In this document: one piece after another, positions 1,388 through 34,602 of the stretch | Position numbering within the stretch: position 1 is the stretch's first letter | Layout of the letters: each line of letters starts with the position of its first letter | DNA from: Gammaproteobacteria bacterium | Lineage (GTDB): Bacteria > Pseudomonadota > Gammaproteobacteria > SG8-11 | NCBI GenBank assembly: GCA_024641505.1 | Contig: JAHECY010000026.1 | Location: 7,568 to 43,916, forward strand | Direction: 5' to 3' | DNA length: 36,349 nucleotides | Position numbers and translations under genes: made by a program | The notes under the pieces: model-generated | The model's input: the letters and a program-made list of their open reading frames with translations, nothing else | Database searches by the model: none | What the model was told of the DNA's origin: nothing

Positions 1388-3343
1388 TTAACCGACACGG
1401 CACATAATCATCAGTTGATACGGCTCCATGGTCAGTTCCTGGGTCGCGGTAATGGGCTGGCCTGCATACAGATCGATCATGGTTTTGCGCATGCCCATCT
1501 GGCGCAGACGCCGGGCTTCCAGATGCTGTGTGCGCTCGCTGAAATTAGCCAGAATAAACAAGGCCGATTGCTGGTGGCTGCGAGTGAAAGCCAGTACATG
1601 CGGGTTGCCGGTTTCCACGAAGTCGGTATCGCTGCCCGCGAAGGCTGGATTCTGGTTGCGCAATTGGATCAGCCGCAACAACCCCTGGAACACCCGGCCT
1701 GGCAGGCTTTGCGGGTCACGGCGCAGTTCCGCGCGGTCCCAGTCAAAAGGCGCGCGGTGCAGCCAGCGGGAATCGCCGGTCTTTTCCCGATCTTGTTCAT
1801 AGCTGTAGTCATTGAGGGTGGCAATTTCGTCACCGAGGTAGAGTAAAGGAATGCCGCTGATGGTGATGATGACGCCATGGATCAGCAGGATGCGCCGCAC
1901 CGCAAGATCCAATGCTGAGTCATCTTGTTGTTGCAGGGCCAATTCAACGCCCGCCAGTGAGGCGCAGGTACCGGAGACTCGCGCTTCACCGGTGAGGCGG
2001 TCCTCCTGGAACGGCGCGCCCCGGGCGAAACTGCCGGCAAACTTCCCGGTGTAAAAGCGCGTCAGGAAGGGCCGGTGTTCCCGTGGGGTAAAGCCGGCGC
2101 TGATGACATCGTCATCGGCGAAGGCCCAGCCGATGTCATCGTGGCAGCGCACGTAATTCACCCAGGTACAACCGGGCGCGATCGCAAAACGTTGCTTCAT
2201 CGCCTGCTGTAAGATGCGCACATCCCGAGTCGCCAGCGCATCCCACAACAGAGCCATCAGTTGCGGGTTGTAGGAAAGCGGACATTCTTCCGTGCTGATG
2301 TATTTGCGGACCTCGTCGGGGTGCACAATGGCTTCGGATTTGAAGACCATGGCGGGTGCCGCGATACTGGCCAAGGCATTGAATGCCTGGATGATCCAGT
2401 GGGCTTGCGGCAGATTTTGGGAATTGGTGCCCAGCTCCTTCCAGATGAAGGCGACCGCATCCAGGCGCAGGATCTCCACACCTTGATTCGCCAGAAACAG
2501 CATTTCTTCCAGCATGCGGTGAAACACCGCGGGATTGGCGTAGTTTAAATCCCACTGATAGGTGTGAAATGTCGTCCAGACCCATTTTTTCAAATGTGAT
2601 CGATAGGTGAAGGCGCCGGGATGATCGTCGCTGAATACCTCGGGCATGGTTTTCTCATAGGCATCCGGCAGTGTCCGGTTGGGGAACAGGCGGTAATAAG
2701 CCTGATATTCAGCGTCGCCGTCGAGGGCCTGACGCGCCCATTCATGTTCGTCCGCGGTATGGTTGAAAATAAAATCCAGGGTCAGGGATATGCCGTGATG
2801 GCGCAACTCCGTGGCTAACTCAGCCAATTGCTCCATGGTACCCAGTGCCGGATCAACTTCCCGATAACTACTGATCGCGTAACCACCGTCGTTATCACCT
2901 TCCGGTACTTTGAAAATGGGCATCAGGTGCAGGTAGGTTACACCCAGTTCGGAAAGGTAGGGGATTTGTTTGCGCAGACCTTCGAGGTCACCGGCGAACA
3001 GGTCCACATAGCACATGGCGCCGACCATGCGGCTGGCCAGATACCAGCGGGGATCCGCTTCCCGTAACGCATCCAGGGCTTTCAGCTCGGGCGGGCGCGC
3101 CAGCCACATTTCCGTGGCGCCGCTGATGATGGTTTCGAGATGGTAAAAGAAATCATATTGGGCGCCATACAGCGCGTACAGGCGTCCGAACAGCCGGGGG
3201 AAGTGTTTTTTCATGCGCGTGAGGTACATTTCCCACGCCACCGGATCGGTTTCGTTCTTGAAGCGGTTTTCGATGCGCGGCAGCAGGCGGCGCAGGGATG
3301 CGGCGCTCTGCTGTTCCAGCCATAGCGGATCTTTGTCGGTCAT
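1388..3343 (-). CDS. ams: amylosucrase (GH13 sucrose glucosyltransferase)
   Basis: The 651-aa product aligns along its whole length with my recollection of Neisseria polysaccharea amylosucrase, including GAMCYVDLFAGDL, LHLMPIFK, DFIFNHT, LRLDAVAFIWK, KSEAIVHPD and NYVRCHDDIGW. Confidence 0.9.
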   Translation of the reverse strand: MTDKDPLWLEQQSAASLRRLLPRIENRFKNETDPVAWEMYLTRMKKHFPRLFGRLYALYGAQYDFFYHLETIISGATEMWLARPPELKALDALREADPRWYLASRMVGAMCYVDLFAGDLEGLRKQIPYLSELGVTYLHLMPIFKVPEGDNDGGYAISSYREVDPALGTMEQLAELATELRHHGISLTLDFIFNHTADEHEWARQALDGDAEYQAYYRLFPNRTLPDAYEKTMPEVFSDDHPGAFTYRSHLKKWVWTTFHTYQWDLNYANPAVFHRMLEEMLFLANQGVEILRLDAVAFIWKELGTNSQNLPQAHWIIQAFNALASIAAPAMVFKSEAIVHPDEVRKYISTEECPLSYNPQLMALLWDALATRDVRILQQAMKQRFAIAPGCTWVNYVRCHDDIGWAFADDDVISAGFTPREHRPFLTRFYTGKFAGSFARGAPFQEDRLTGEARVSGTCASLAGVELALQQQDDSALDLAVRRILLIHGVIITISGIPLLYLGDEIATLNDYSYEQDREKTGDSRWLHRAPFDWDRAELRRDPQSLPGRVFQGLLRLIQLRNQNPAFAGSDTDFVETGNPHVLAFTRSHQQSALFILANFSERTQHLEARRLRQMGMRKTMIDLYAGQPITATQELTMEPYQLMIMCRVG

Positions 3344-3431
3344 GGGTCCTCATTTAACATCAGTCGTATCGGGCGTAGTCTACCCGATATGCAGGTAAAA
3401 ACCGAAATAAACGCAAGTTTACCGCCAGCGG

Positions 3432-3446
3432 GTGCGTTAAACGCAC
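3432..3446. promoter_or_regulatory. perfect 7-1-7 palindrome GTGCGTT-A-AACGCAC in the amylosucrase upstream region
   Basis: Read directly. It lies about 90-105 bp upstream of the ams start and shares its core with the GGTGCGTA/TACGCACC hairpins nearby. Confidence 0.35.
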
Positions 3447-3454
3447 GGGTTTTG

Positions 3455-3545
3455 CGCAGGGTGCGTATTACGCACCGGCTTTTTATTTTCAGAACGAAGC
3501 ATGGCTTTGTTCAAAAAAAACAATGGTGCGTAATACGCACCCTGC
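3455..3545. terminator. pair of near-identical hairpins (GGTGCGTATTACGCACC at 3461-3477 and GGTGCGTAATACGCACC at 3525-3541), each followed by a T-run on opposite strands. Together they form a bidirectional intrinsic terminator or REP-like element
   Basis: The right-hand hairpin is preceded by A8 on the plus strand. On the minus strand this reads as hairpin then UUUUUUUU, directly 3' of the peptidase gene (stop at 3614). The left-hand hairpin is followed by GGCTTTTTATTTT on the plus strand. The two arms, including their CAGG/CCTG flanks, are inverted repeats about 21 bp long. Confidence 0.6.
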
Positions 3546-3613
3546 AATCTGCGCCGGCATCCCATGGTGTCTTGGGAACGGAAGAGTGCCGGACCGACCG
3601 ATATTTTACTGAA

Positions 3614-4303
3614 TCACAAGGGCCGCAGCATGCGCCCCCAGCGCCACAGGCGAATGATATCGGTGAGGGCGACGGCGAGGTAAGTCAGTGCCGCGGCGCG
3701 CAATATCCGGCGCAATACCGGCAGGTGCCGGTCGTCAACGTACTGACCCGCCGCCAGGATCGGCAGCGCTTTGCCAAAACTGGCGTCCCATTCCATGGGT
3801 AAAATAAACGTATAGCTGACCACCGATGCCAGCAGCATGGCGAGCGCGACAAACACCGGCAGTAACGCGGCGGCCGGAGCATGCAGCACCGCGGTGGCGG
3901 CCGGTGCCAGCATGAATAAAACAGTGCCGATGCGCTTTAGCCGGTTCGCCCAGGGCATGTATTGGTGCCACAGGGTGGATACCGCTTCCTGACGATGAAA
4001 TTGCAGGGCATGCCCCACTTCGTGCGCGGCCACCGCCACCGCGGTCAGCGAGCGTCCACCGAAGTTCTTGGGGCTCAGACGCACCTTGTTGGTTTGCGGG
4101 TCGTAGTGATCACCACCGGCGTGAGTTTCTTCCACACCGGTTTCTGACAGATCGAACCGCTGCAACAGGTGGCGCGCCAGTTCCGCGCCGGTACCGGGAA
4201 TGTCGGACCGGTCCGCGCTGTTCTTGTGCATGACCCAGCGTACCCAAAGATAGGGACCGAACACCAGGCCGAGGAACAGCAGGCCGGAAAGTCCAATTAT
4301 CAT
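3614..4303 (-). CDS. membrane zinc metallopeptidase (YugP-like, Zn_peptidase_2 family)
   Basis: The product has an N-terminal transmembrane segment, a DHYDP...KVRLS motif and the HEVGHALQ zinc site, with an AAALTY C-terminal region like B. subtilis YugP. The start is set at MIIGLSG (ATG 4303), where the ATGA overlaps the aroG stop. The ORF-track start at 4378 is probably a spurious upstream extension. Confidence 0.8.
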   Translation of the reverse strand: MIIGLSGLLFLGLVFGPYLWVRWVMHKNSADRSDIPGTGAELARHLLQRFDLSETGVEETHAGGDHYDPQTNKVRLSPKNFGGRSLTAVAVAAHEVGHALQFHRQEAVSTLWHQYMPWANRLKRIGTVLFMLAPAATAVLHAPAAALLPVFVALAMLLASVVSYTFILPMEWDASFGKALPILAAGQYVDDRHLPVLRRILRAAALTYLAVALTDIIRLWRWGRMLRPL

Positions 4304-5358: not shown

Positions 5359-5716
5359 TGGGTGGAGGCATCATCCTGGCAAATGGTCTCACGTCAGAGG
5401 GTCCTACTTTACGACATACTACAGGCGGTAAACAGCCGTTGCCGAGGGCGCCGCAGAGAAGCAGTCGGCCCGCCTGGACGGCCTTCTCGGCCAGGCTGCG
5501 GCATAAAAATATACATTATATAACTTGATGTATTATTGCCAGAGTCCGGTCTGAGGCAAGCCCCAATATGAATCATTTCATTATAGGCGGATAATGTGTA
5601 TCTTCATGATTTTACGGAAGTTAACAAAAATTCCGCATGGCACTAAAAAAGCGCAAGCTTTCCCTACAGGGCTCGGCTAGAATCTTAATTACCCATTAAC
5701 CGTTTTGGAAACTTCT

Positions 5717-6487
5717 ATGACCTATTGTGTTGCTATCGCAGTGCAGGATGGCTTGGTGTTTTGTTCGGATTCGCGTACCAATGCGGGGCCGGACATGATT
5801 TCCACCTACAGTAAAATGCATGTGTTCAAGCCGGCAGCGGACCGGTTTTTCGTGGTGTTGAGCGCCGGCAACCTTGCCACCACGCAGGCGATCATCGCGC
5901 GCCTGGAAAACCAGGAAGAAGATCCAGGGCAGGGGAGTCTGGCGAACTGCAAGAAAATGATCGATGCCGTACGCTATGTCAGTCAGGTGAGTCGCGATGA
6001 ACAATTGCAGGCGGCGGAGACCCTGGCTACCGCGAATGTGGATGCTTCCGCTTCCCTGATCTTCGGCGGTCAGATTCTCGGCAGCCCGCCGGCGATCTAC
6101 ATGATCTATTCGGCGGGCAATTTCATTACCGATTCCGACGAGAATCCGTTTTTGCAGATCGGTGAAAGCAAATACGGTAAGCCCATTCTGGATCGGATCC
6201 TGACCCGCGAGACAAGCCTGGAAGATGCCGCCCGTTGCGCCATCGTGTCCATGGATTCCACGGTACGTTCCAATGCCACCGTCGGGCCGCCGATCGAAGT
6301 CATGGTGTGCATCACGGATTCCGTGGAAGAGAGCCACTATGCGCGTCTGGAAGATGATGACGAGTATCTGCGCACGGTCCGGCAAGCGTGGAATGACGCC
6401 CTTAAACTGTCATTCGCCGAGCTGCCCCGTTTTGATTGGGAAAAACGTCAACCCCCGCGCTCATTGCGCGCGGTAAAAAATGACTGA
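5717..6487 (+). CDS. Anbu (ancestral beta-subunit proteasome homologue, Ntn-hydrolase, COG3484)
   Basis: The protein begins MTYCVAI, with Thr directly after Met as in proteasome beta subunits. DGLVFCSDSRTNAG contains an Asp about 17 residues in, and there is a Lys around position 32-33. Length is about 256 aa. It sits next to COG2308 and COG2307 genes. The track start (TTG 5705) is probably wrong; ATG 5717 is preferred. Confidence 0.8.
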   Translation: MTYCVAIAVQDGLVFCSDSRTNAGPDMISTYSKMHVFKPAADRFFVVLSAGNLATTQAIIARLENQEEDPGQGSLANCKKMIDAVRYVSQVSRDEQLQAAETLATANVDASASLIFGGQILGSPPAIYMIYSAGNFITDSDENPFLQIGESKYGKPILDRILTRETSLEDAARCAIVSMDSTVRSNATVGPPIEVMVCITDSVEESHYARLEDDDEYLRTVRQAWNDALKLSFAELPRFDWEKRQPPRSLRAVKND

Positions 6488-6868: not shown

Positions 6869-8329
6869 ATGACTATCCGTTGGGGCAGTTACAAGATCAA
6901 AGGGTTTTACGACGAGTTATTACGCGCCTCCGGGCGGCCACGGCCGGCAGCCGCTTCATTGTGCAAATACCTGCGCACGCTTAAAGACAAAGAAATCGAA
7001 GAGTACAAGGCCGCCTCTGATCTGGCGATACAGGTCATGGGTATCACTTTCCGGGTGTATTCGGAAGAGGAAGGCTCCATTGATCGCGCCTGGCCCTTCG
7101 ATATTATCCCGCGCATCATCGATCGCAAGGAATGGCAAGCCATTGAGGCAGGTCTGGTGCAACGAGTGCACGCCTTGAACCTGTTTATCGATGACCTCTA
7201 TCACGACCAGAAAATCGTCAAAGACAAGGTGTTTCCCGCGGAGCTGTTGCAGGACTCGGTGAATTTTCGCAAGCAGTGTGTCGGGGTCAAGCCACCATTG
7301 GGCATCTGGGCACATATTTGTGGTTCGGACCTGGTGCGGGACAAGGACGGCACGGTGTTCGTGCTCGAAGACAACCTGCGCGTGCCTTCCGGTGTGTCCT
7401 ACATGCTGGAGAATCGCCAGGTGATGAAGCGTGTGTTCCCGGAGTTGTTCGAGGACTACAGCATTCTGCCGGTGGATGATTATCCCTCGCAGTTGTTCGA
7501 TACCCTGGCCTCCCTGTCGCCGCGCCCAGGTGATCAACCGGAAATTGTGGTGCTCACGCCCGGTGTCTACAATTCCGCCTATTTTGAACATGCCTACCTG
7601 GCGCAACAAATGGGCGCGGAACTGGTGCAAGGTTCCGACCTGGTGGTGCAGAAGGATAATTGCGTGTACATGCGCACCATCGAAGGTCTCACCCGGGTGG
7701 ATGTGATCTACCGGCGCGTGGATGATCTGTTCCTGGACCCGGAGGTATTCAACAAGGACTCCACCCTGGGCGTACCCGGTCTGATGCGAGCGTGGAAAGC
7801 AGGCAATGTGGCCCTTGCCAACGCCCCGGGTGCCGGTGTCGCCGACGACAAGGTGGTCTACGCTTATGTGCCGGACATCATCAAGTACTATCTTGACGAA
7901 GATGCCATCCTTCCCAACGTACCCACCTATAAATGCAACGTCAAGGAAGAACGGGACTATGTGATCAACAATATGGACAAGCTGGTAGTGAAGCCCGCCA
8001 ATGAGTCCGGTGGCTATGGCATGTTGATCGGACCTCAGGCCAGCGACGAGGAACGGGAGAAATTCGTGCGCCTGATCAAGCGTGATCCGCGCAACTACGT
8101 GGCGCAACCCATGCTCATCCTGTCCACAGCGCCGACCCTGGTGGGTACCCATGTGGAGCCGCGCCATCTGGATTTACGCCCGTTTATTCTGAGTGGCGAC
8201 AAGACGGTGGTTACCACCGGCGGGTTGACGCGTGTCGCCCTGCGCAAGGGATCTACCGTGGTTAACTCTTCCCAGGGCGGTGGCAGCAAAGACACCTGGA
8301 TCGTGGATCTGGAAGGAGCCGGCGCATGA
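6869..8329 (+). CDS. circularly permuted ATP-grasp protein (COG2308; DUF404/DUF407 type, predicted amide/peptide ligase)
   Basis: The 486-aa product has an N-terminus (GFYDELL...GRPRP...ITFRVYSEEEGSIDRAWPFDIIPRII...EWQAIEAGLVQRVHALNLFIDDLYHDQKI) that matches my recollection of this family. Its stop overlaps the next gene's start (ATGA at 8326-8329). Confidence 0.85.
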   Translation: MTIRWGSYKIKGFYDELLRASGRPRPAAASLCKYLRTLKDKEIEEYKAASDLAIQVMGITFRVYSEEEGSIDRAWPFDIIPRIIDRKEWQAIEAGLVQRVHALNLFIDDLYHDQKIVKDKVFPAELLQDSVNFRKQCVGVKPPLGIWAHICGSDLVRDKDGTVFVLEDNLRVPSGVSYMLENRQVMKRVFPELFEDYSILPVDDYPSQLFDTLASLSPRPGDQPEIVVLTPGVYNSAYFEHAYLAQQMGAELVQGSDLVVQKDNCVYMRTIEGLTRVDVIYRRVDDLFLDPEVFNKDSTLGVPGLMRAWKAGNVALANAPGAGVADDKVVYAYVPDIIKYYLDEDAILPNVPTYKCNVKEERDYVINNMDKLVVKPANESGGYGMLIGPQASDEEREKFVRLIKRDPRNYVAQPMLILSTAPTLVGTHVEPRHLDLRPFILSGDKTVVTTGGLTRVALRKGSTVVNSSQGGGSKDTWIVDLEGAGA

Positions 8330-9252
8330 GTATGCTGTCACGGGTCGCGGAAAATCTCTATTGGCTGGGACGGTATATCGAGCGTGCGGAGAATACCGCG
8401 CGCCTGATCACCGTCAACAGCAATCTGTTGCTGGATCTGCCGCGGCGCGTGCGTCTGGGCTGGCAACCCATCGTCGATATCATCGGCGCCAGTGATCTAT
8501 ACAAGGATCAACATGACGCCGTCGATGAACGCAGTGTGCTGCGCTTCATCGTCGCCAGTCCCACCAATGCCGGCTCCATTTTGCATTCGCTGACCATGGC
8601 GCGGGAAAATGCGCGCACCGTGCGTGATATCATTCCACGGGAGGCTTGGGAGCAGATCAATCATTTGTATGCGCTGGTGAAGGAAGACATAAACCGGGTA
8701 TACACCCAGCGCACCCGGTTTGATTTTCTGCGCCAGATCATTCTCGGCGCTCAGACCATCACCGGTTTGCTGTCGGGCACCATGACCCATGACGAGGGCT
8801 ATGCGTTCTTGCGGGTCGGGCGCAACCTGGAGCGGGCGGACATGGGCACGCGCATCATCGACGTGCGCTCCGCGTCCCTGCTGCCGGATCTGTCCGGTGA
8901 GTTGACGCCCTTCGAAAATATTCAATGGATGAGCGTGCTCAAATCCATGACCGGTTACCAGATGTACCGCCGCAGCATGCGCCTGCGGGTACGCCGCGCC
9001 GATGTGCTGCGTTTCCTGCTGCAGAACCTGCAATTTCCCCGTTCCTTTCTGCATTGCGTGAGCGCGGTGGAAGACTGTTTATGGGAACTGCCAAATCATG
9101 AGAAGCCCATAGCGCTGGTGCAATCCCTGCAGCGCAAGGTGCAACGGATCAATACCGACAAGCTGGAACAGAGTCAACTGCACGATACTCTGGACAATTT
9201 GCAACTGGGTTTGGCGAAAATCAGTACCGAACTCAAGCACAGCTATTTTTAA
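8326..9252 (+). CDS. alpha-E domain protein (COG2307 / DUF403)
   Basis: The 308-aa product begins MSMLSRVAENLYWLGRYIERAENTARL, the hallmark N-terminus of alpha-E proteins. It is translationally coupled to the ATP-grasp gene. Confidence 0.85.
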   Translation: MSMLSRVAENLYWLGRYIERAENTARLITVNSNLLLDLPRRVRLGWQPIVDIIGASDLYKDQHDAVDERSVLRFIVASPTNAGSILHSLTMARENARTVRDIIPREAWEQINHLYALVKEDINRVYTQRTRFDFLRQIILGAQTITGLLSGTMTHDEGYAFLRVGRNLERADMGTRIIDVRSASLLPDLSGELTPFENIQWMSVLKSMTGYQMYRRSMRLRVRRADVLRFLLQNLQFPRSFLHCVSAVEDCLWELPNHEKPIALVQSLQRKVQRINTDKLEQSQLHDTLDNLQLGLAKISTELKHSYF

Positions 9253-19655: not shown

Positions 19656-20945
19656 AACGCTGCTGACCGCGTTAAACGCATTGAGTCGGCCGCCGGTCAC
19701 GGTGCGTCCAGCCAGCGCCGGCAGCGCATCGGTGGTGCTGAGGATGGCGGTGCGTAATTCCGTCACGGACAGCTCGGGATTGGCCGCCAGTACCAGACCC
19801 GCTACGCCGGTGACGTGGGGCGCCGCCATGGACGTACCGCTGTATGCGGCATAAGCGTTATTGCGGATGGTGCTGACGATGCCCACGCCGGGTGCGCCCA
19901 GATCCACCGAATTGACACCGAAGTTGGAGAATGTCGCCAGCCGGTCGCTGCTGTCGGTGGCGGCGACGGACAGGACATTTGCCAGATCGTAGTCGGCAGG
20001 GTAACTGGGGCGGTTGTCGGTGTTGGCGCCGTTATTGCCGGCGGCGGCCACGAACAGCACGCCGGCGTTATTGGCGGCGGCGATGGCATTGAACATGGCG
20101 TTACTGAAACCGGCCCCGCCCCAACTGGCGTTGATCACCTTGGCGCCGTTGCGCACCGCATACTGAATGGCGCCCACCGCGGCGGCCACGCCACCGGCGC
20201 CGGCAGCGGTCATGAATTTCACGGGCATGATGCGGGCGGACCAGTTGATGCCCGTCACGCCTATGGCGTTGTTGCCCAGTGCCGCGATGGTGCCGGACAC
20301 ATGGGTGCCATGGTTGTTGTCATCGACGGGATCATTGTCGTTATTGGCGAAGTCCCAGCCGCGGATATCATCTATGTAACCGTTGCCATCGTCGTCGATG
20401 CGATTGTTGGCGATCTCTCCGGCATTCCGCCAGATGTTGGCGGCCAGATCGTTGTGATTGTAATCCACTCCGGTATCGATCACGGCGATCACCGTGTCGG
20501 CGCCGGTTTGCAGATCCCAGGCCTCGGGAGCATCGATGTCGGCATCCACGACGCCGCCGGTTTGACCGCTATTGTTCAGGCCGTACAGGTCGGCGAAACG
20601 GGGGTCGTTGGGAATGTCGGCTGCGGTAAGCATGTAATTGGGTTCGGCGTATTCGACATTCGGGTCCAGAGCGAGCAGGCTGATGGTTTGCGCGGTGTTC
20701 AGACCGGAGGTGATGCGGGCATAGGTCAGTCCGGACACCAGCGTGAAGTTCTGCACGCCGCGGCAACCGGCGGAGCGCAAGCTGCGTGTCTGGTTACGCA
20801 GACTGGTGGTGCTGCGGAATTTTATCAGGATGCCACCGGCTTCGGCGGCCGCCGGCGCCTGGCCTTCAACGGCGAAACCCGTTGCCGGCACCAGCATGGC
20901 TCCGACGATGACGCAAAGACAAACGAAGGTATTTCGTATCCGCAT
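17961..20945 (-). CDS. secreted subtilisin-family (S8) serine protease with propeptide and seven C-terminal Big_2 (bacterial Ig-like) repeats
   Basis: The product has a signal peptide and the S8 catalytic motifs Asp (VIDTGVD), His (HGTHVSGT) and Ser (GTSMAAPHV). About seven units of roughly 85-90 aa then each contain LQFTA(T)GG...Y(T/A)WS. Confidence 0.85.
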   Translation of the reverse strand: MRIRNTFVCLCVIVGAMLVPATGFAVEGQAPAAAEAGGILIKFRSTTSLRNQTRSLRSAGCRGVQNFTLVSGLTYARITSGLNTAQTISLLALDPNVEYAEPNYMLTAADIPNDPRFADLYGLNNSGQTGGVVDADIDAPEAWDLQTGADTVIAVIDTGVDYNHNDLAANIWRNAGEIANNRIDDDGNGYIDDIRGWDFANNDNDPVDDNNHGTHVSGTIAALGNNAIGVTGINWSARIMPVKFMTAAGAGGVAAAVGAIQYAVRNGAKVINASWGGAGFSNAMFNAIAAANNAGVLFVAAAGNNGANTDNRPSYPADYDLANVLSVAATDSSDRLATFSNFGVNSVDLGAPGVGIVSTIRNNAYAAYSGTSMAAPHVTGVAGLVLAANPELSVTELRTAILSTTDALPALAGRTVTGGRLNAFNAVSSVAAATPAPPAPPPMPALTLTPQSGTLALGGTLQFNAAGGVTPYTYSVDNPVVATINSISGLLTALAAGNTAVTVTDNTGSSVSTGSINIVSLEVAPQSANLTVADNLQFTAIGGNAPYTWSSSNGLVATIDASTGVLTAVNAGTTRVSAVDVNGFSASSGTINVSAAAPPPPPPAPLSITPQTGILGIGQVLRFTVTGGVGAIVWSSSNAAVASISSSGLLTGVGAGTMVVSATDGNGVSVTSGNIEVRRVEVSPGTGTLASRATLQFTASGGALPYAWSTSDSTVATIDASGLLTALAPGVITVSAMDANAISGSSGAINITDSTPLSVTPITAVLIIGDSQTFSATGGIGAVTWSTTDITIANISNLGVLTALTAGTVAVIATDELGNSGRSDPLTILAVAPIITISPFNTTLGVGAARQFTATGGSRAPYTWAINNAASATIDATSGVLTGTAAGTVVVSATDANGFTGSSGVVTISAASANIVVTPQVAALATGASLQFSATGGIGSYTWSVSNPISATINANGLLTGLIAGAVIITATDGNGANGSSSTVTITAGGRGMH

Positions 20946-26295: not shown

Positions 26296-26538
26296 ATGCC
26301 GCAACCGGAAATTGCCCAGAAAGCGCCGTACAAGGTTGATCTGGAACCGGGTAAGAAATACTGGTGGTGCCAATGTGGCAAATCCAGGAACCAGCCGTTT
26401 TGTGATGGTTCCCACAAGGATACAGATTTCAGTCCGGTAGCGTTCGAGGTTCAGGAAAAAGCGACGAAGTTTTTGTGCGGTTGCAAGCGCACCCAGACAC
26501 CGCCGTTTTGTGATGGCAGCCATAAAAAGTTGCCCTGA
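26296..26538 (+). CDS. CDGSH-type iron-sulfur domain protein (two CDGSH motifs)
   Basis: The 80-aa product contains two C-x-C-x8-CDGSH units. An AGGAG ribosome-binding site is present. Confidence 0.8.
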   Translation: MPQPEIAQKAPYKVDLEPGKKYWWCQCGKSRNQPFCDGSHKDTDFSPVAFEVQEKATKFLCGCKRTQTPPFCDGSHKKLP

Positions 26539-26651: not shown

Positions 26652-26678
26652 AAAAAAAAACGGGCACCGAAGTGCCCG
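26652..26678 (-). terminator. intrinsic terminator of the glnK-amtB operon
   Basis: Plus-strand A9 is followed by CGGGCAC-CGAA-GTGCCCG. On the minus strand this is a GC-rich hairpin followed by U9, 25 bp after the amtB stop. Confidence 0.8.
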
Positions 26679-26703
26679 CGTTAGTTTCCATTAAAGGAGA
26701 GGA

Positions 26704-31976: not shown

Positions 31977-32972
31977 ATGCGAGTATTGACCGGTGACATT
32001 GGCGGTACCAAAACGTTTCTGCAAGTGGCGGATATCTATCCGAATCAATACAAGGTGATTTATGAGCGGGAGTACCGCAGCGCCGACTATGCGGAATTCA
32101 CGCCCCTGTTGAAAGAGTTTCTGCATGAGGCCGCGGGCAAGGCCGATTTGATTCTGGGCAGCGCGTGCATCGGTGTCGCCGGGCCGGTGAGCGATAATTG
32201 CGCACAGGTGACGAATTTAGAGTGGCGCCTGGACGCGGCACAACTCAGTAAAGACACCGGCATCGCCACCGTGAAACTGATCAATGATTTTCAGGCGATC
32301 GGTTACGGTCTGGACGGTATGAGCGGGCAGGAACTGCATACTTTGCAGGAAGGTAAACCGTTGCATCACGGGCCGCGCGTCGTCATCGGCGCCGGCACCG
32401 GTCTAGGTGAAGGCGTCATCTACTGGCATGAAGATGGTTACCGCATCCTGCCGTCCGAAGGCGGGCATACCAATTTTGCGCCGGCGGACGATCTGCAAGT
32501 GGAGTTTCTCCAGTATTTGCGCCGCCATGAGGCCACGGTGTGCTACGACATCGTATTGTCGGGCCGCGGACTTCACAATATGTATAAATTCCTGCGTGAT
32601 ACCGGCAAAGCTGAGGAGTCACCGGCGCTCCGGGATGCCATTCCCGTGGGCGATCCAGCGGAGGTGATCAGTCGGGCGGCATTGGCAGGCAACGATGCCC
32701 TGGCGGTGCAGGCCCTTGACCTGTTTTGTGCGATTTATGGTGCGCAAGCCGGGAACCTGGCGCTCACCACGGTGGCTTCAGGCGGCGTGTACGTGGCCGG
32801 TGGCATCGCACCCAAAATCATCGACAAGCTGGCGGACGGCGGTTTCATGCGCGCTTTTCACGCCAAGGGCAAGATGTCCGAACTGATGACCACCCTGCCG
32901 GTTTACGTGGTGCTCAATCCCAAGGTGGGCGTGATCGGCGCGGCCTTGTATGCCTGCCGCACCAGTAAGTGA
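31977..32972 (+). CDS. glk: glucokinase
   Basis: The 331-aa product begins LTGDIGGTKT... and has a GAGTGLGEG motif. An AGAAGGA ribosome-binding site is present. Confidence 0.85.
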   Translation: MRVLTGDIGGTKTFLQVADIYPNQYKVIYEREYRSADYAEFTPLLKEFLHEAAGKADLILGSACIGVAGPVSDNCAQVTNLEWRLDAAQLSKDTGIATVKLINDFQAIGYGLDGMSGQELHTLQEGKPLHHGPRVVIGAGTGLGEGVIYWHEDGYRILPSEGGHTNFAPADDLQVEFLQYLRRHEATVCYDIVLSGRGLHNMYKFLRDTGKAEESPALRDAIPVGDPAEVISRAALAGNDALAVQALDLFCAIYGAQAGNLALTTVASGGVYVAGGIAPKIIDKLADGGFMRAFHAKGKMSELMTTLPVYVVLNPKVGVIGAALYACRTSK

Positions 32973-33045: not shown

Positions 33046-33076
33046 AACGGTGCGTAGGGTAGGTATTACGCACCGT
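33046..33076. repeat. REP-like palindromic hairpin ACGGTGCGTA-(10 nt)-TACGCACCGT between the convergent glk and zwf genes
   Basis: A perfect 10-bp stem is read directly. It shares the GGTGCGTA/TACGCACC core with the elements at 3432-3545. No adjacent T-run. Confidence 0.5.
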
Positions 33077-33114: not shown

Positions 33115-34602
33115 TCAATCCTCGTCATCCGGGTCCAACGAATGGCGCCACCACTGGTCTTCGCGGTCGAACAGGCGTTGTGTGGCACGCGGACCCCAGG
33201 TGCCCGCGGGATAGGTGTGAATGTATTCCCGTTCCATGGACCACACCCGAAGGATCGGGTCCACCACGCGCCATGCCCACTCCACTTCGTCATAGCGCAG
33301 GAACAGGCTGTGGTCGCCCTCGATTACATCCAGTAACAGACCTTCGTAAGCATCATAGGGAATTTCATCTTCCTCGCGGAAGTTGGCGTCGAGACTCAGC
33401 GAGCGGGTGCGCATCTCCAGGCCCGGTTGTTTCACCTGTACTTCCATGCGCACGCATTCCGTGGGTTGGATGCCCAACAACAACCAATCAGGCTTCAACC
33501 GATCCACCTGGGTGTTATGAAACAGGTGTTGGGGCGGGTGCTTGAACCGAATACTCACCATGGATTTACCTTCCGCCAGCCGCTTGCCGGTGCGCAGGTA
33601 AAAGGGCACATCGCGCCAGCGCCAGTTGTCGATATACAGTTTCAGTGCGGCATAGGTTTCGGTGACGCTGTTCTTGGCGGTTTCGTCTTCTTCCAGGTAG
33701 CTGGGGACCTTTTCGCCGTTGATCATGCCACTGGTGTATTGCGCCCGGAAGGAGTGGGCGTGCACCGCGCTCTGCGGAATCGGGCGAATCGATTTCAGTA
33801 CCTTTACTTTTTCATCACGCAGCGATTCGGCATCCATGGTGGCCGGAGGTTCCATGGCCACCAGGGTGAGCACTTGCAATAAATGACTTTGGATCATGTC
33901 GCGCAGGGCGCCCGCGCCGTCGAAGTACTCGCCGCGGCCGCCGATGCCGGCGGTTTCCGAGTGAGTGATTTGCACATGGTCGATATAGTTGCGGTTCCAC
34001 AAGGGTTCCATCAGCACGTTGGCGAAACGAAACACCAGCACATTCTGGATGGTGCCTTTGCCGAGATAGTGGTCGATGCGGTAGATCTGTTCTTCCTTCA
34101 GATGTCGCTGCAATTTGGTTTGCAGCATATGGGCGCTTTCCAGGTCGTAACCGAACGGCTTCTCGATTACTACCCGACGCCAGCCGCCATCTTCCGTGGC
34201 CAGGTTGGTTTCCGCGAGATTCTGGGTGACGATGCCGTATTCCGCGGGACGAATCGCCATGTAGAAAATAATATTCCTGGGAAATTCTGTATTAGTGTAG
34301 ATATGGTCACGCAGCGCGCCAAAGGAAGCGGCGTCCTTGAGGTCCCCTTGCTGGAAATGCATGCGCGCCAGCAGGCGATCCATGTTCTCGGCTTTGCCAC
34401 CGTCGCGGACTTTTGGCGCAAGGGTGCGGCGCACCTCTTCCCGCCATTGGCTGTCGGACCAGTCACGCCGGCCGAAACCAATGACTTTGCTGCCCTCGGG
34501 AAGTTTGTTTGCGCTTTCGAGATGGTACAGCGCCGGCAGCAGTTTCAACTGCGCCAGACTGCCGGTGGCGCCGAATATCACAAACGTGCAGGGTTCGATC
34601 AT
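33115..34602 (-). CDS. zwf: glucose-6-phosphate 1-dehydrogenase
   Basis: The 495-aa product has an NADP site ([11 protein letters not shown]), RIDHYLGKE-like and EKP.G motifs. Confidence 0.9.

What the first reader, a model, noticed from the sequence alone, without database searches (positions are those of the whole stretch)
33046..33076. A family of GTGCGT-core palindromes near carbohydrate genes
The same core occurs four times: 3432-3446 (GTGCGTT-A-AACGCAC), 3461-3477, 3525-3541 and 33046-33076 (stem ACGGTGCGTA). All four are intergenic. Three lie upstream of amylosucrase and one lies between glk and zwf. The alternatives are a REP-type repeat family or operators of one sugar-responsive regulator. 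The 3432 copy lacks a T-run and sits in promoter position for amylosucrase, which favours the operator reading.
Basis: partly seen in the sequence, partly recalled or inferred. Interest (0 to 1): 0.5.

Follow-up and report, generated by a model that had tools for sequence, protein, structure and literature searches.

The report
REP-type hairpin repeats, not operators
The four GTGCGT-core palindromes are most likely copies of a dispersed REP-type hairpin repeat that lie just past gene ends and may act as transcript stop or stability signals, not binding sites of a sugar regulator, so the finding is real but ordinary.

Summary
Four GTGCGT-core palindromes lie at 3431-3447, 3460-3476, 3525-3541 and 33047-33076. 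All are intergenic, far above chance, and present in independent assemblies.

The favoured operator reading does not hold.
- Copies 2 and 3 are the arms of one inverted pair, GCAG-GGTGCGTATTACGCACC-48 nt-GGTGCGTAATACGCACC-CTGC. It folds into one long hairpin (z = -8.3). This is the head-to-head dimer layout of GTAG/GYAG-tagged REP elements (REPIN-like).
- The same 17-mer recurs in unrelated genomes: Alysiella crassa, Moraxella, Planctomycetota and gammaproteobacterial MAGs. There it carries a one-sided GTAG/GCAG/GTAA tag, mostly as head-to-head dimers with 21-37 nt spacers. In the 17 sites checked in Alysiella and Moraxella, 16 are intergenic, and the ten adjacent genes examined are functionally diverse.
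- Close syntenic relatives lack the elements. One has aroG, Zn-peptidase and amylosucrase with a 150-nt palindrome-free spacer. Another has zwf and glk stop codons only 4 nt apart.
- The copy at 33047 lies between two convergent 3' ends.

Copies 2 and 3 each carry an inward T-run. Copy 3 probably terminates the aroG/Zn-peptidase transcript.

Two things are untested: genome-wide copy number in the source genome, and a cognate RAYT transposase. I rate this a new member of a known kind, of low interest.

The parts
3431..3447 (.). E1: degenerate, untagged repeat unit GGTGCGTTAAACGCACG. It has a 6-bp stem and lies 13 nt from the dimer, so the three copies form a group. It is 89 nt upstream of the amylosucrase ATG.
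   Evidence: 3 mismatches to the 17-mer. The hairpin is weak: -7.5 kcal/mol, z = -1.5.
3456..3476 (+). E2: REP unit made of the GCAG tag (3456-3459) and the palindrome GGTGCGTATTACGCACC (3460-3476). It is the left arm of the head-to-head dimer.
   Evidence: (I1).
3477..3524 (.). 48-nt dimer spacer. It holds a T-run (3480-3489), a small internal hairpin, and an A-run (3513-3520). The A-run reads as a T-run on the minus strand.
   Evidence: The A-run and T-run pair with each other and extend the long hairpin.
3525..3545 (-). E3: REP unit made of the palindrome GGTGCGTAATACGCACC (3525-3541) and CTGC (3542-3545), which is the GCAG tag on the minus strand. It is the right arm of the dimer. On the minus strand it is a hairpin followed by U8, 73 nt after the Zn-peptidase stop codon.
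   Evidence: -13.2 kcal/mol.
3456..3545 (.). The whole head-to-head (REPIN-like) dimer. It has 21-nt perfect terminal inverted repeats and can fold into one long hairpin.
   Evidence: I1.: -72.2 kcal/mol, z = -8.3, 0 of 200 shuffles fold as well. classifies it as HH with a 48-nt spacer.
33047..33076 (.). E4: single variant unit. It has a 10-bp stem ACGGTGCGTA/TACGCACCGT and a 10-nt loop GGGTAGGTAT, with no canonical outer tag and no T-run. It contains a 2-mismatch copy of the 17-mer at 33058-33074. It lies between the convergent glk and zwf genes.
   Evidence: -18 to -20 kcal/mol. The intergenic region that holds it is absent in relatives.
3614..4303 (-). Context: Zn-peptidase (PF04298) gene, last gene of an aroG/Zn-peptidase pair. 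E3 follows its 3' end.
1388..3343 (-). Context: amylosucrase-like GH13 gene downstream of the E1-E3 cluster.
   Evidence: In one search the homologues are named amylosucrase by their sources.
31977..32972 (+). Context: glucokinase gene. Its stop codon is 75 nt before E4.
33115..34602 (-). Context: glucose-6-phosphate dehydrogenase gene. Its stop codon is 39 nt from E4.

Best explanation
The four palindromes are copies of a dispersed REP-type repeat: a short hairpin-forming palindrome, GGTGCG-(loop)-CGCACC, with an unpaired GTAG-type tag on one side. In this genome the tag is GCAG.

E2 and E3 together form a head-to-head dimer with the tags on the outside (REPIN-like). E1 is a decayed extra unit beside the dimer. 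E4 is a rearranged single unit.

By analogy with characterised REPs, such elements would spread, or once spread, as single-stranded DNA hairpins handled by a REP-associated tyrosine transposase (RAYT). They persist in gene-poor positions just past 3' ends. That step is inferred, not shown.

Their local effect is probably at the RNA level, and this too is inferred.
- E3 on the minus strand is a 7-bp GC-rich hairpin followed by U8, 73 nt after the Zn-peptidase stop codon. It most likely terminates the aroG/Zn-peptidase transcript and insulates the amylosucrase promoter.
- E2 is the mirror-image hairpin with a T-run for the opposite direction.
- E4 gives both convergent transcripts (glk and zwf) a stable 3' hairpin without a U-tract.

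The proximity to carbohydrate genes is coincidental.
For: Shown here:
1. Architecture. E2 and E3 form GCAG-palindrome-48 nt-palindrome-CTGC with 21-nt perfect inverted ends. The pair folds as one hairpin: -72.2 kcal/mol, z = -8.3.
2. The same 17-mer recurs in unrelated genomes. The truncated genome scan gave 83 stretches. About 20 contigs were from Alysiella crassa, several hits came from Moraxella species, and there were Planctomycetota and gammaproteobacterial MAGs.
3. One-sided tags. In the 93 hits of the two scans the tags were GTAG/CTAC 36, GCAG/CTGC 13, and GTAA/TTAC in Moraxella. No hit had a tag on both sides. Chance would give about 1-2%.
4. Dimers. Of 33 dimers counted (one of them the window's own), 28 are head-to-head and 30 have spacers of 21-37 nt. 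In Alysiella the dimer is a conserved unit.
5. Location. 16 of 17 sites examined in low-GC genomes are intergenic, mostly between unidirectional or convergent genes. The ten adjacent genes examined are diverse: ABC transporters, RdgC, FtsK, TatD and one glycogen phosphorylase.
6. Presence/absence polymorphism at syntenic sites.
   - L102 has aroG, Zn-peptidase and amylosucrase with a 150-nt spacer and no palindrome.
   - L097 (zwf 90% identical) has gnd-zwf facing glk-pgl with only 4 nt between the stop codons.
   - L099-L101 also lack E4.
   - L094 (amylosucrase 78% identical) carries a GTAG-tagged pair downstream of the gene, not upstream.
   - L104 has GGGGTGCGTACGCACCCC right after its Zn-peptidase stop codon.
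7. E2 and E3 pass the terminator scan. The only other strong intergenic terminator in the window, that of amt at 26679-26660, has an unrelated stem.

From the literature:
- GTAG REPs have 6-13 bp stems and short loops. Their tags can degenerate to GYAG. Head-to-head dimers have 20-100 bp spacers. The elements lie mainly after 3' ends between unidirectional or convergent ORFs (PMC3733652).
- The RAYT-flanking REP of Haemophilus influenzae is GTAGGGTGGGCTTCAGCCCACC. It has the same GTAG-GGTG...CACC frame (PMC2817692, Table 1).
Against: - Copy number in the source genome is unknown. Only 4 copies at 2 loci are visible.
- No RAYT or Y1-transposase gene was found in the window or in any fetched locus. 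The query for one search was recalled from memory. RAYTs are usually single-copy, so this result is weak either way.
- E1 and E4 lack a canonical tag.
- The window's tag is GCAG, not GTAG.
- The spacer of the window dimer is 48 nt and carries T- and A-runs, unlike the 21-37 nt spacers elsewhere. This copy may therefore have been reshaped by selection for termination.
- Both loci do lie next to carbohydrate genes.
- Termination itself is not demonstrated.
Confidence: 0.75

Rival explanations
1. The palindromes are operators of one sugar-responsive dimeric transcription factor that co-regulates amylosucrase and the glk/zwf genes.
For: - The 15-17 bp dyad symmetry is perfect.
- Both loci adjoin carbohydrate genes.
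- E1 lies 89 nt upstream of the amylosucrase ATG and has no strong T-run.
Against: - E4 lies between two convergent stop codons, not in a promoter.
- E2 and E3 are terminator-like and lie just after the upstream gene's stop codon.
- Syntenic relatives lack the sites altogether.
- The non-syntenic amylosucrase homologues have no palindrome upstream.
- No regulator gene was found among the 30 window ORFs scanned.
- The same tagged palindrome is multi-copy in unrelated genomes, next to unrelated genes.
- The one-sided GCAG tag and the long-hairpin dimer have no role in an operator model.
Confidence: 0.05
2. The palindromes are ordinary intrinsic terminators or 3'-end hairpins. They share a stem through local duplication or convergence, without any mobility or dedicated enzyme.
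For: - E2 and E3 meet the stem-plus-T-run rule.
- All copies lie after 3' ends.
- Some hits in other genomes look like plain terminators: L034, L055 and L077.
Against: - Four copies of an 8-17 nt identical core at two loci 30 kb apart are far above chance.
- Terminators need no conserved one-sided tag or head-to-head dimer, yet both recur across genomes.
- E1 and E4 have no U-tract.
- E2 faces a direction with no upstream gene.
- The amt terminator in the same window uses an unrelated stem.
Confidence: 0.12
3. [quoted passage not shown] A conventional DDE transposase would mobilise it through its 21-bp terminal inverted repeats. It would be unrelated to RAYTs.
For: - The element is 90 nt long with perfect 21-nt terminal inverted repeats.
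- It shows presence/absence polymorphism at syntenic sites.
- In Alysiella the dimer is nested in a larger composite element with further inverted repeats.
Against: - No target-site duplication flanks positions 3456-3545.
- Each arm is itself a palindrome with a GTAG-type tag, which is the REP signature and not a typical DDE terminal repeat.
- Single units (E1, E4) and variable spacers are typical of REPs.
- No transposase was found in any fetched locus.
Confidence: 0.06

Closest known systems
GTAG-tagged REP superfamily (Di Nocera et al. 2013, PMC3733652); REPINs (Bertels and Rainey 2011, PMC3116915)
   Same: - Short palindrome with a 6-8 bp GC-rich stem and a 3-5 nt loop.
- One-sided unpaired tag of the GYAG type.
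- Head-to-head dimers, tags outside, spacers of 20-100 bp, able to fold into one long hairpin.
- Extragenic position after 3' ends, between unidirectional or convergent genes.
- Patchy presence among relatives.
   Different: - The stem sequence GGTGCG...CGCACC was not found in the text or held supplements of that paper, nor in any searchable paper.
- The tag in this window is GCAG.
- Copy number and a cognate RAYT are unverified for this genome.
- The window dimer has an unusually long spacer with T- and A-runs.
Haemophilus influenzae and H. parasuis RAYT-flanking REPs, GTAGGGTGGGCTTCAGCCCACC and GTAGGGTGGGTCTTGACCCACC (Nunvar et al. 2010, PMC2817692, Table 1)
   Same: They share the frame GTAG + GGTG-stem ... 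CACC and a total length of about 21-22 nt. They occur in gammaproteobacteria.
   Different: The inner stem and loop differ: GGGC/GCCC there against CGTA/TACG here. Association with a RAYT gene is documented there and not here.
Escherichia coli REP/BIME elements
   Same: Tagged palindromes in alternating orientation within 3' untranslated regions. Proposed roles are in termination and mRNA stability.
   Different: E. coli REPs are longer (about 35 nt) with bulged stems and a different sequence. They bind IHF, gyrase and Pol I, which is not assessed here.
Rho-independent (intrinsic) terminators
   Same: E2 and E3 are GC-rich hairpins followed by a T-run. E3 is correctly placed after the Zn-peptidase gene.
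   Different: Terminators are not a sequence family. E1 and E4 lack U-tracts. The tags and the dimer layout are not terminator features.
Inverted DNA-uptake-sequence pairs that form terminators in Neisseriaceae and Pasteurellaceae
   Same: A repeated short motif occurs as an inverted pair after genes. In Alysiella the REP dimer lies between inverted DUS-like 12-mers.
   Different: Uptake sequences are also enriched as single copies inside genes. Here the 8-mer GGTGCGTA has only 2 non-palindromic copies in 36 kb against about 1 expected.

Membership tests
GTAG-type REP / REPIN | Short hairpin-forming palindrome with a 6-13 bp stem and a short loop | tested here: met
   E2 and E3 have a 7-bp stem and 3-nt loop (-13 kcal/mol). 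E1 has a 6-bp stem. E4 has a 10-11 bp stem. The definition comes from PMC3733652.
GTAG-type REP / REPIN | Unpaired tetranucleotide tag (GTAG, or degenerate GYAG/GTRG) on one side only | tested here: met
   E2 has 5'-GCAG and E3 has CTGC-3', which fits GYAG. In the other fetched copies the tags are GTAG 36, GCAG 13, and GTAA in Moraxella. No copy has a tag on both sides.
GTAG-type REP / REPIN | The tag is present on every unit | tested here: not met
   E1 and E4 have no canonical outer tag. E4 has GTAG inside its loop. I read both as decayed or rearranged units.
GTAG-type REP / REPIN | Inverted dimers (head-to-head or tail-to-tail), spacer 20-100 bp, able to fold as one hairpin | tested here: met
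   E2 and E3 form a head-to-head dimer with a 48-nt spacer. Fold: z = -8.3. 28 of 33 dimers in the fetched DNA are head-to-head.
GTAG-type REP / REPIN | Extragenic position, mainly after 3' ends between unidirectional or convergent genes | tested here: met
   E1-E3 lie between unidirectional genes, 73 nt after the upstream stop codon. E4 lies between convergent genes. 16 of 17 sites in Alysiella and Moraxella are intergenic.
GTAG-type REP / REPIN | Tens to hundreds of dispersed copies in the genome | not testable with these tools
   The source genome could not be reached. Only 4 copies at 2 loci in 36 kb are visible. Other genomes are multi-copy: Alysiella crassa has about 20 contigs with exact copies in a truncated scan.
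GTAG-type REP / REPIN | A cognate RAYT (Y1/HUH transposase) gene in the genome, flanked by the repeat | tested here: inconclusive
   None was found in the window or in about 100 fetched loci by motif search and phmmer. The phmmer query was recalled from memory. RAYTs are typically single-copy, so whole genomes would be needed.
GTAG-type REP / REPIN | Presence/absence polymorphism at orthologous sites (a supporting feature, not strictly a defining one) | tested here: met
   L102, L097 and L099-L101 lack the elements at syntenic sites. L094 and L104 carry related units at other positions.
Intrinsic terminator | GC-rich stem-loop directly followed by a U-tract | tested here: met
   This is met for E2 (plus strand) and E3 (minus strand) only. 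E1 and E4 do not qualify.
Intrinsic terminator | Transcripts end at the site | not testable with these tools
   This needs 3'-end mapping such as Term-seq or 3' RACE.
Operator of a sugar-responsive regulator | Located in the promoter or 5' region of the regulated genes | tested here: not met
   E4 lies between two stop codons. E2 and E3 are more than 115 nt upstream of the ATG and terminator-like. Only E1, 89 nt upstream of the amylosucrase ATG, could qualify.
Operator of a sugar-responsive regulator | Conserved at orthologous promoters in related genomes | tested here: not met
   the sites are absent in every syntenic or homologous locus examined.
Operator of a sugar-responsive regulator | A candidate cognate regulator is encoded nearby | tested here: not met
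   No DNA-binding regulator domain was found in the 30 window ORFs scanned. A regulator encoded elsewhere in the genome cannot be excluded.
DNA uptake sequence | Strong genome-wide over-representation of the single motif, including inside genes | tested here: not met
   Only 2 copies of GGTGCGTA lie outside the palindromes in 36 kb, against about 1 expected.

The most novel reading that the evidence does not exclude
One REP sequence class, a GTAG/GYAG tag plus GGTGCGTAWTACGCACC, is shared almost base for base by very distant lineages: Neisseriaceae, Moraxellaceae, Planctomycetota and several uncultured Gammaproteobacteria. This would imply either horizontal spread of one RAYT-REPIN system across phyla or an unusually constrained recognition hairpin. 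In Alysiella the dimer is nested between inverted DNA-uptake-like sequences, which could let natural transformation carry it between genomes.
Probability: 0.2. Interest if true: 0.5.

Novelty: new member of a known kind. Interest (0 to 1): 0.2.

Why it matters
- For annotation, these palindromes should be labelled as REP-type repeats or 3'-end hairpins, not as a sugar regulon. This avoids a false regulatory inference for amylosucrase, glk and zwf.
- The E2-E3 dimer is a neat example of a repeat that seems to have been co-opted as a two-way terminator between an aromatic-amino-acid operon and the amylosucrase gene.
- The stem class was not found in the searchable literature, yet it recurs in several phyla. 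It could serve as a marker for tracing RAYT/REPIN systems in uncultured Gammaproteobacteria, Moraxella and Alysiella.
- None of this changes current understanding of REP biology.

Tried and rejected
1. Genome-wide count. The metagenome scan with the tagged 21-mer found 8 contigs, none of them the source.
2. Source identification. Exact-protein look-ups for the NCBI contig failed. Cluster look-up gave no names. Only short Logan contigs of run SRR12825371 were recovered. By homologue names the taxon is an uncultured gammaproteobacterium. The nearest named amylosucrases, at about 75% identity, are from Thiotrichales SG8_50, Halochromatium and Candidatus Tenderia.
3. RAYT search. A regular expression for HUH...YxxxNP/Q and a phmmer run with an E. 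coli RAYT sequence recalled from memory were applied to all ORFs of the window and loci. Nothing was found. Clustering ORFs across loci gave no shared transposase-like family.
4. Literature search for the 12- to 17-mers gave no relevant paper. The motif is not in the text or held supplements of PMC3733652.
5. Rfam gave no family at gathering score. There were only meaningless weak miRNA-precursor hits on the long hairpin.
6. The promoter scan found no sigma-70-like site in 3300-3700, so the amylosucrase promoter remains unplaced.
7. Alignment of the window spacer with the L102 spacer was too diverged to define insertion boundaries.
8. Rejected as coding coincidences: a fifth GTGCG...CGCAC match at 26475-26492 lies inside a small CDGSH-type ORF, and single GGTGCGTA copies at 19749 and 28030 lie inside ORFs.
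9. An uptake-sequence reading was rejected because the single motif is not enriched.

Full report
**1. What is in the sequence**

The four palindromes are real.
- E1 is GTGCGTTAAACGCAC at 3432-3446.
- E2 is GGTGCGTATTACGCACC at 3460-3476.
- E3 is GGTGCGTAATACGCACC at 3525-3541.
- E4 is ACGGTGCGTA-GGGTAGGTAT-TACGCACCGT at 33047-33076.

They are not chance events. The 15-mer pattern GTGCGTWNWACGCAC has 3 matches against 0.04 expected. The 8-mer GGTGCGTA has 8 matches against 1.06 expected, and six of them lie in these palindromes. With up to 3 mismatches the 17-mer finds only E1, E2, E3 and an internal copy within E4 at 33058-33074. A fifth loose match at 26475-26492 lies inside a small CDGSH-type coding ORF and is a coincidence. 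Independent Logan assemblies of run SRR12825371 reproduce both regions.

**2. Gene context**

E1-E3 lie in the 270-nt gap between a Zn-peptidase gene and an amylosucrase-like GH13 gene.
- The Zn-peptidase gene (PF04298, 3614-4303, minus) is the last gene of an aroG/Zn-peptidase pair.
- The GH13 gene (1388-3343, minus) begins at the other end of the gap.
- The cluster is therefore downstream of one gene as much as upstream of the other. E3 begins 73 nt after the Zn-peptidase stop codon.

E4 lies in a 142-nt gap between two convergent 3' ends, those of glk (plus) and zwf (minus).

No DNA-binding regulator domain was found in the 30 window ORFs scanned. No Rfam family matches.

**3. Anatomy**

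E2 and E3 are not independent sites. They are the arms of a 33-nt inverted repeat (I1). The layout is GCAG-GGTGCGTATTACGCACC, then a 48-nt spacer, then GGTGCGTAATACGCACC-CTGC.

The 21-nt ends are perfect inverted repeats. The region folds into a single long hairpin: -72.2 kcal/mol, z = -8.3, and 0 of 200 shuffles fold as well.

Each arm alone is a 7-bp hairpin of about -13 kcal/mol followed by an inward T-run. Both arms pass the terminator scan.

E1 is a weaker, untagged unit 13 nt from the dimer. E4 has a longer stem and a 10-nt loop, with no outer tag and no T-run.

**4. The same element elsewhere**

- Hits were concentrated in Alysiella crassa (about 20 contigs) and several Moraxella species.
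- Others came from Planctomycetota and Sedimentisphaerales MAGs and from gammaproteobacterial MAGs.
- A few hits are coding coincidences. Five lie in release-factor genes, where the 17-mer encodes the conserved VRITH motif.

The non-coding hits share a larger design.
- A tetranucleotide tag lies on one side only. Over the 93 hits of the two scans the counts are GTAG/CTAC 36 and GCAG/CTGC 13. No hit has a tag on both sides. Moraxella uses GTAA/TTAC.
- A second, related palindrome usually lies 17-37 nt away.

Of 33 dimers counted (the window's own included), 28 are head-to-head with the tags outside. Thirty have spacers of 21-37 nt, and the window's spacer is 48 nt. In Alysiella the dimer GTAG-GGTGCGTATTACGCACC-25 nt-GGTGCGTGGTACGCACC-CTAC is a conserved unit.

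A metagenome scan with the GCAG-tagged 21-mer found 8 contigs, most with the same head-to-head dimers.

In the low-GC genomes 16 of 17 sites are intergenic, mostly between unidirectional or convergent genes. The ten adjacent genes examined are functionally diverse.

**5. Comparison with relatives of the window**

This is the decisive test between operator and repeat.
- L102 is syntenic: aroG, Zn-peptidase (79% identical) and amylosucrase. Its spacer is 150 nt and holds no GTGCG...CGCAC palindrome.
- L097 (zwf 90% identical) keeps gnd-zwf facing glk-pgl but has only 4 nt between the two stop codons. The whole E4-bearing spacer is missing.
- L099-L101, which encode a zwf placed in the window protein's 90%-identity cluster, also lack E4.
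- Three non-syntenic amylosucrase homologues (76-78% identical) have no palindrome upstream.
- One of these, L094, carries a GTAG-tagged pair downstream of amylosucrase.
- L104 has GGGGTGCGTACGCACCCC right after its Zn-peptidase stop codon.

The family therefore exists in this gammaproteobacterial group, but its positions are not conserved.

**6. Interpretation**

The features match the published description of GTAG-tagged REPs (PMC3733652):
- stems of 6-13 bp and short loops;
- a one-sided GTAG tag that can degenerate to GYAG;
- head-to-head dimers with 20-100 bp spacers that can fold into one hairpin;
- a preference for positions after 3' ends, between unidirectional or convergent ORFs;
- trimers made of a singleton next to a dimer.

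The RAYT-flanking REPs of Haemophilus (GTAGGGTGGGCTTCAGCCCACC; PMC2817692, Table 1) share the GTAG-GGTG...CACC frame.

I conclude that E1-E4 are members of a REP-type family. E2 and E3 form a REPIN-like dimer, E1 is a decayed neighbour, and E4 is a rearranged singleton.

Mobilisation by a RAYT acting on the single-stranded hairpin is inferred from what is known of such families. I found no RAYT gene, and whole genomes were out of reach.

The local function is also inferred.
- E3 with its U8 tract is a plausible intrinsic terminator for the aroG/Zn-peptidase transcript.
- E2 is its mirror image for the opposite direction.
- E4 gives both convergent transcripts a stable 3' hairpin.

The amt gene in the same window uses an unrelated classical terminator. 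The shared stem is therefore a family trait and not a general property of terminators in this genome.

**7. Rivals**

- The operator model is contradicted by the position of E4, by the lack of conservation at orthologous sites, by the tags and dimer architecture, and by the element's distribution in other genomes. It survives only as a small possibility for E1.
- Plain terminators would not need tags, dimers or U-less copies.
- A DDE-type MITE is not excluded. However, there is no target-site duplication, and the arms carry the REP signature.

**8. Verdict**

The REP alternative is supported and the favoured operator reading is not. This is a new member of a known kind and of low general interest. 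One side observation may merit follow-up: the same REP sequence class recurs in distant phyla, and in Alysiella it is nested between uptake-sequence-like inverted repeats.

Noticed in passing
L030:1-160, L043:190-400, L064:1-160 and other Alysiella crassa loci: The REP head-to-head dimer is embedded in a conserved composite element of about 150 nt. It is bounded by inverted DUS-like 12-mers (TTCAGGCTGCCT ... AGGCAGCCTGAA) and a second pair of inverted repeats (CAGTACACGACAAAATTCAT ...).
   Followed up: partly
L041:1642, L053:4800, L054:1697, L080:4335, L083:5005: The 17-mer GGTGCGTAWTACGCACC also occurs inside peptide-chain release factor genes (PCRF and RF-1 domains). There it encodes the conserved VRITH motif. 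This is a coding source of background hits in any genome scan for the palindrome.
   Followed up: yes
L104:1108-1125: A perfect 18-nt palindrome, GGGGTGCGTACGCACCCC, begins a few nt after the Zn-peptidase stop codon in a 67%-identical relative. It lies in a 35-nt convergent intergenic gap. It is a loop-less variant of the same core.
   Followed up: partly
L094:7548-7630: The closest amylosucrase homologue examined (78% identical) has a pair with the tags inside: ATGCGTGGAACGCACC-CTAC, then 43 nt, then GTAG-GGTGCGTTTTACGCACC. It lies downstream of the gene, between convergent ORFs.
   Followed up: partly
window 33057-33066: The 10-nt loop of E4 (GGGTAGGTAT) contains GTAG. Positions 33058-33074 match the 17-mer with 2 mismatches. 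This suggests E4 arose by partial duplication or rearrangement of a canonical tagged unit.
   Followed up: partly
window 26297-26538 and 26660-26679: A small CDGSH-type iron-sulfur ORF lies here, recognised from its CxC...CDGSH repeats read by eye. Beside it is a textbook intrinsic terminator (GCGGGCAC-TTCG-GTGCCCGT followed by T9) after the ammonium transporter gene.
   Followed up: partly
L099:8606-8739, L100:3834-4007, L101:2048-2249: Three metagenome contigs that encode a zwf placed in the window protein's 90%-identity cluster all break off 130-200 nt after zwf, in a CCTGGTGG tandem repeat. glk is not convergent there, so synteny differs from the window and from L097.
   Followed up: no
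window 6869-9252: A gene pair encodes a circularly permuted ATP-grasp protein and an Alpha-E domain protein. A proteasome-type subunit gene lies at 5705-6487. This is a conserved cluster of unclear function and is unrelated to the finding.
   Followed up: no
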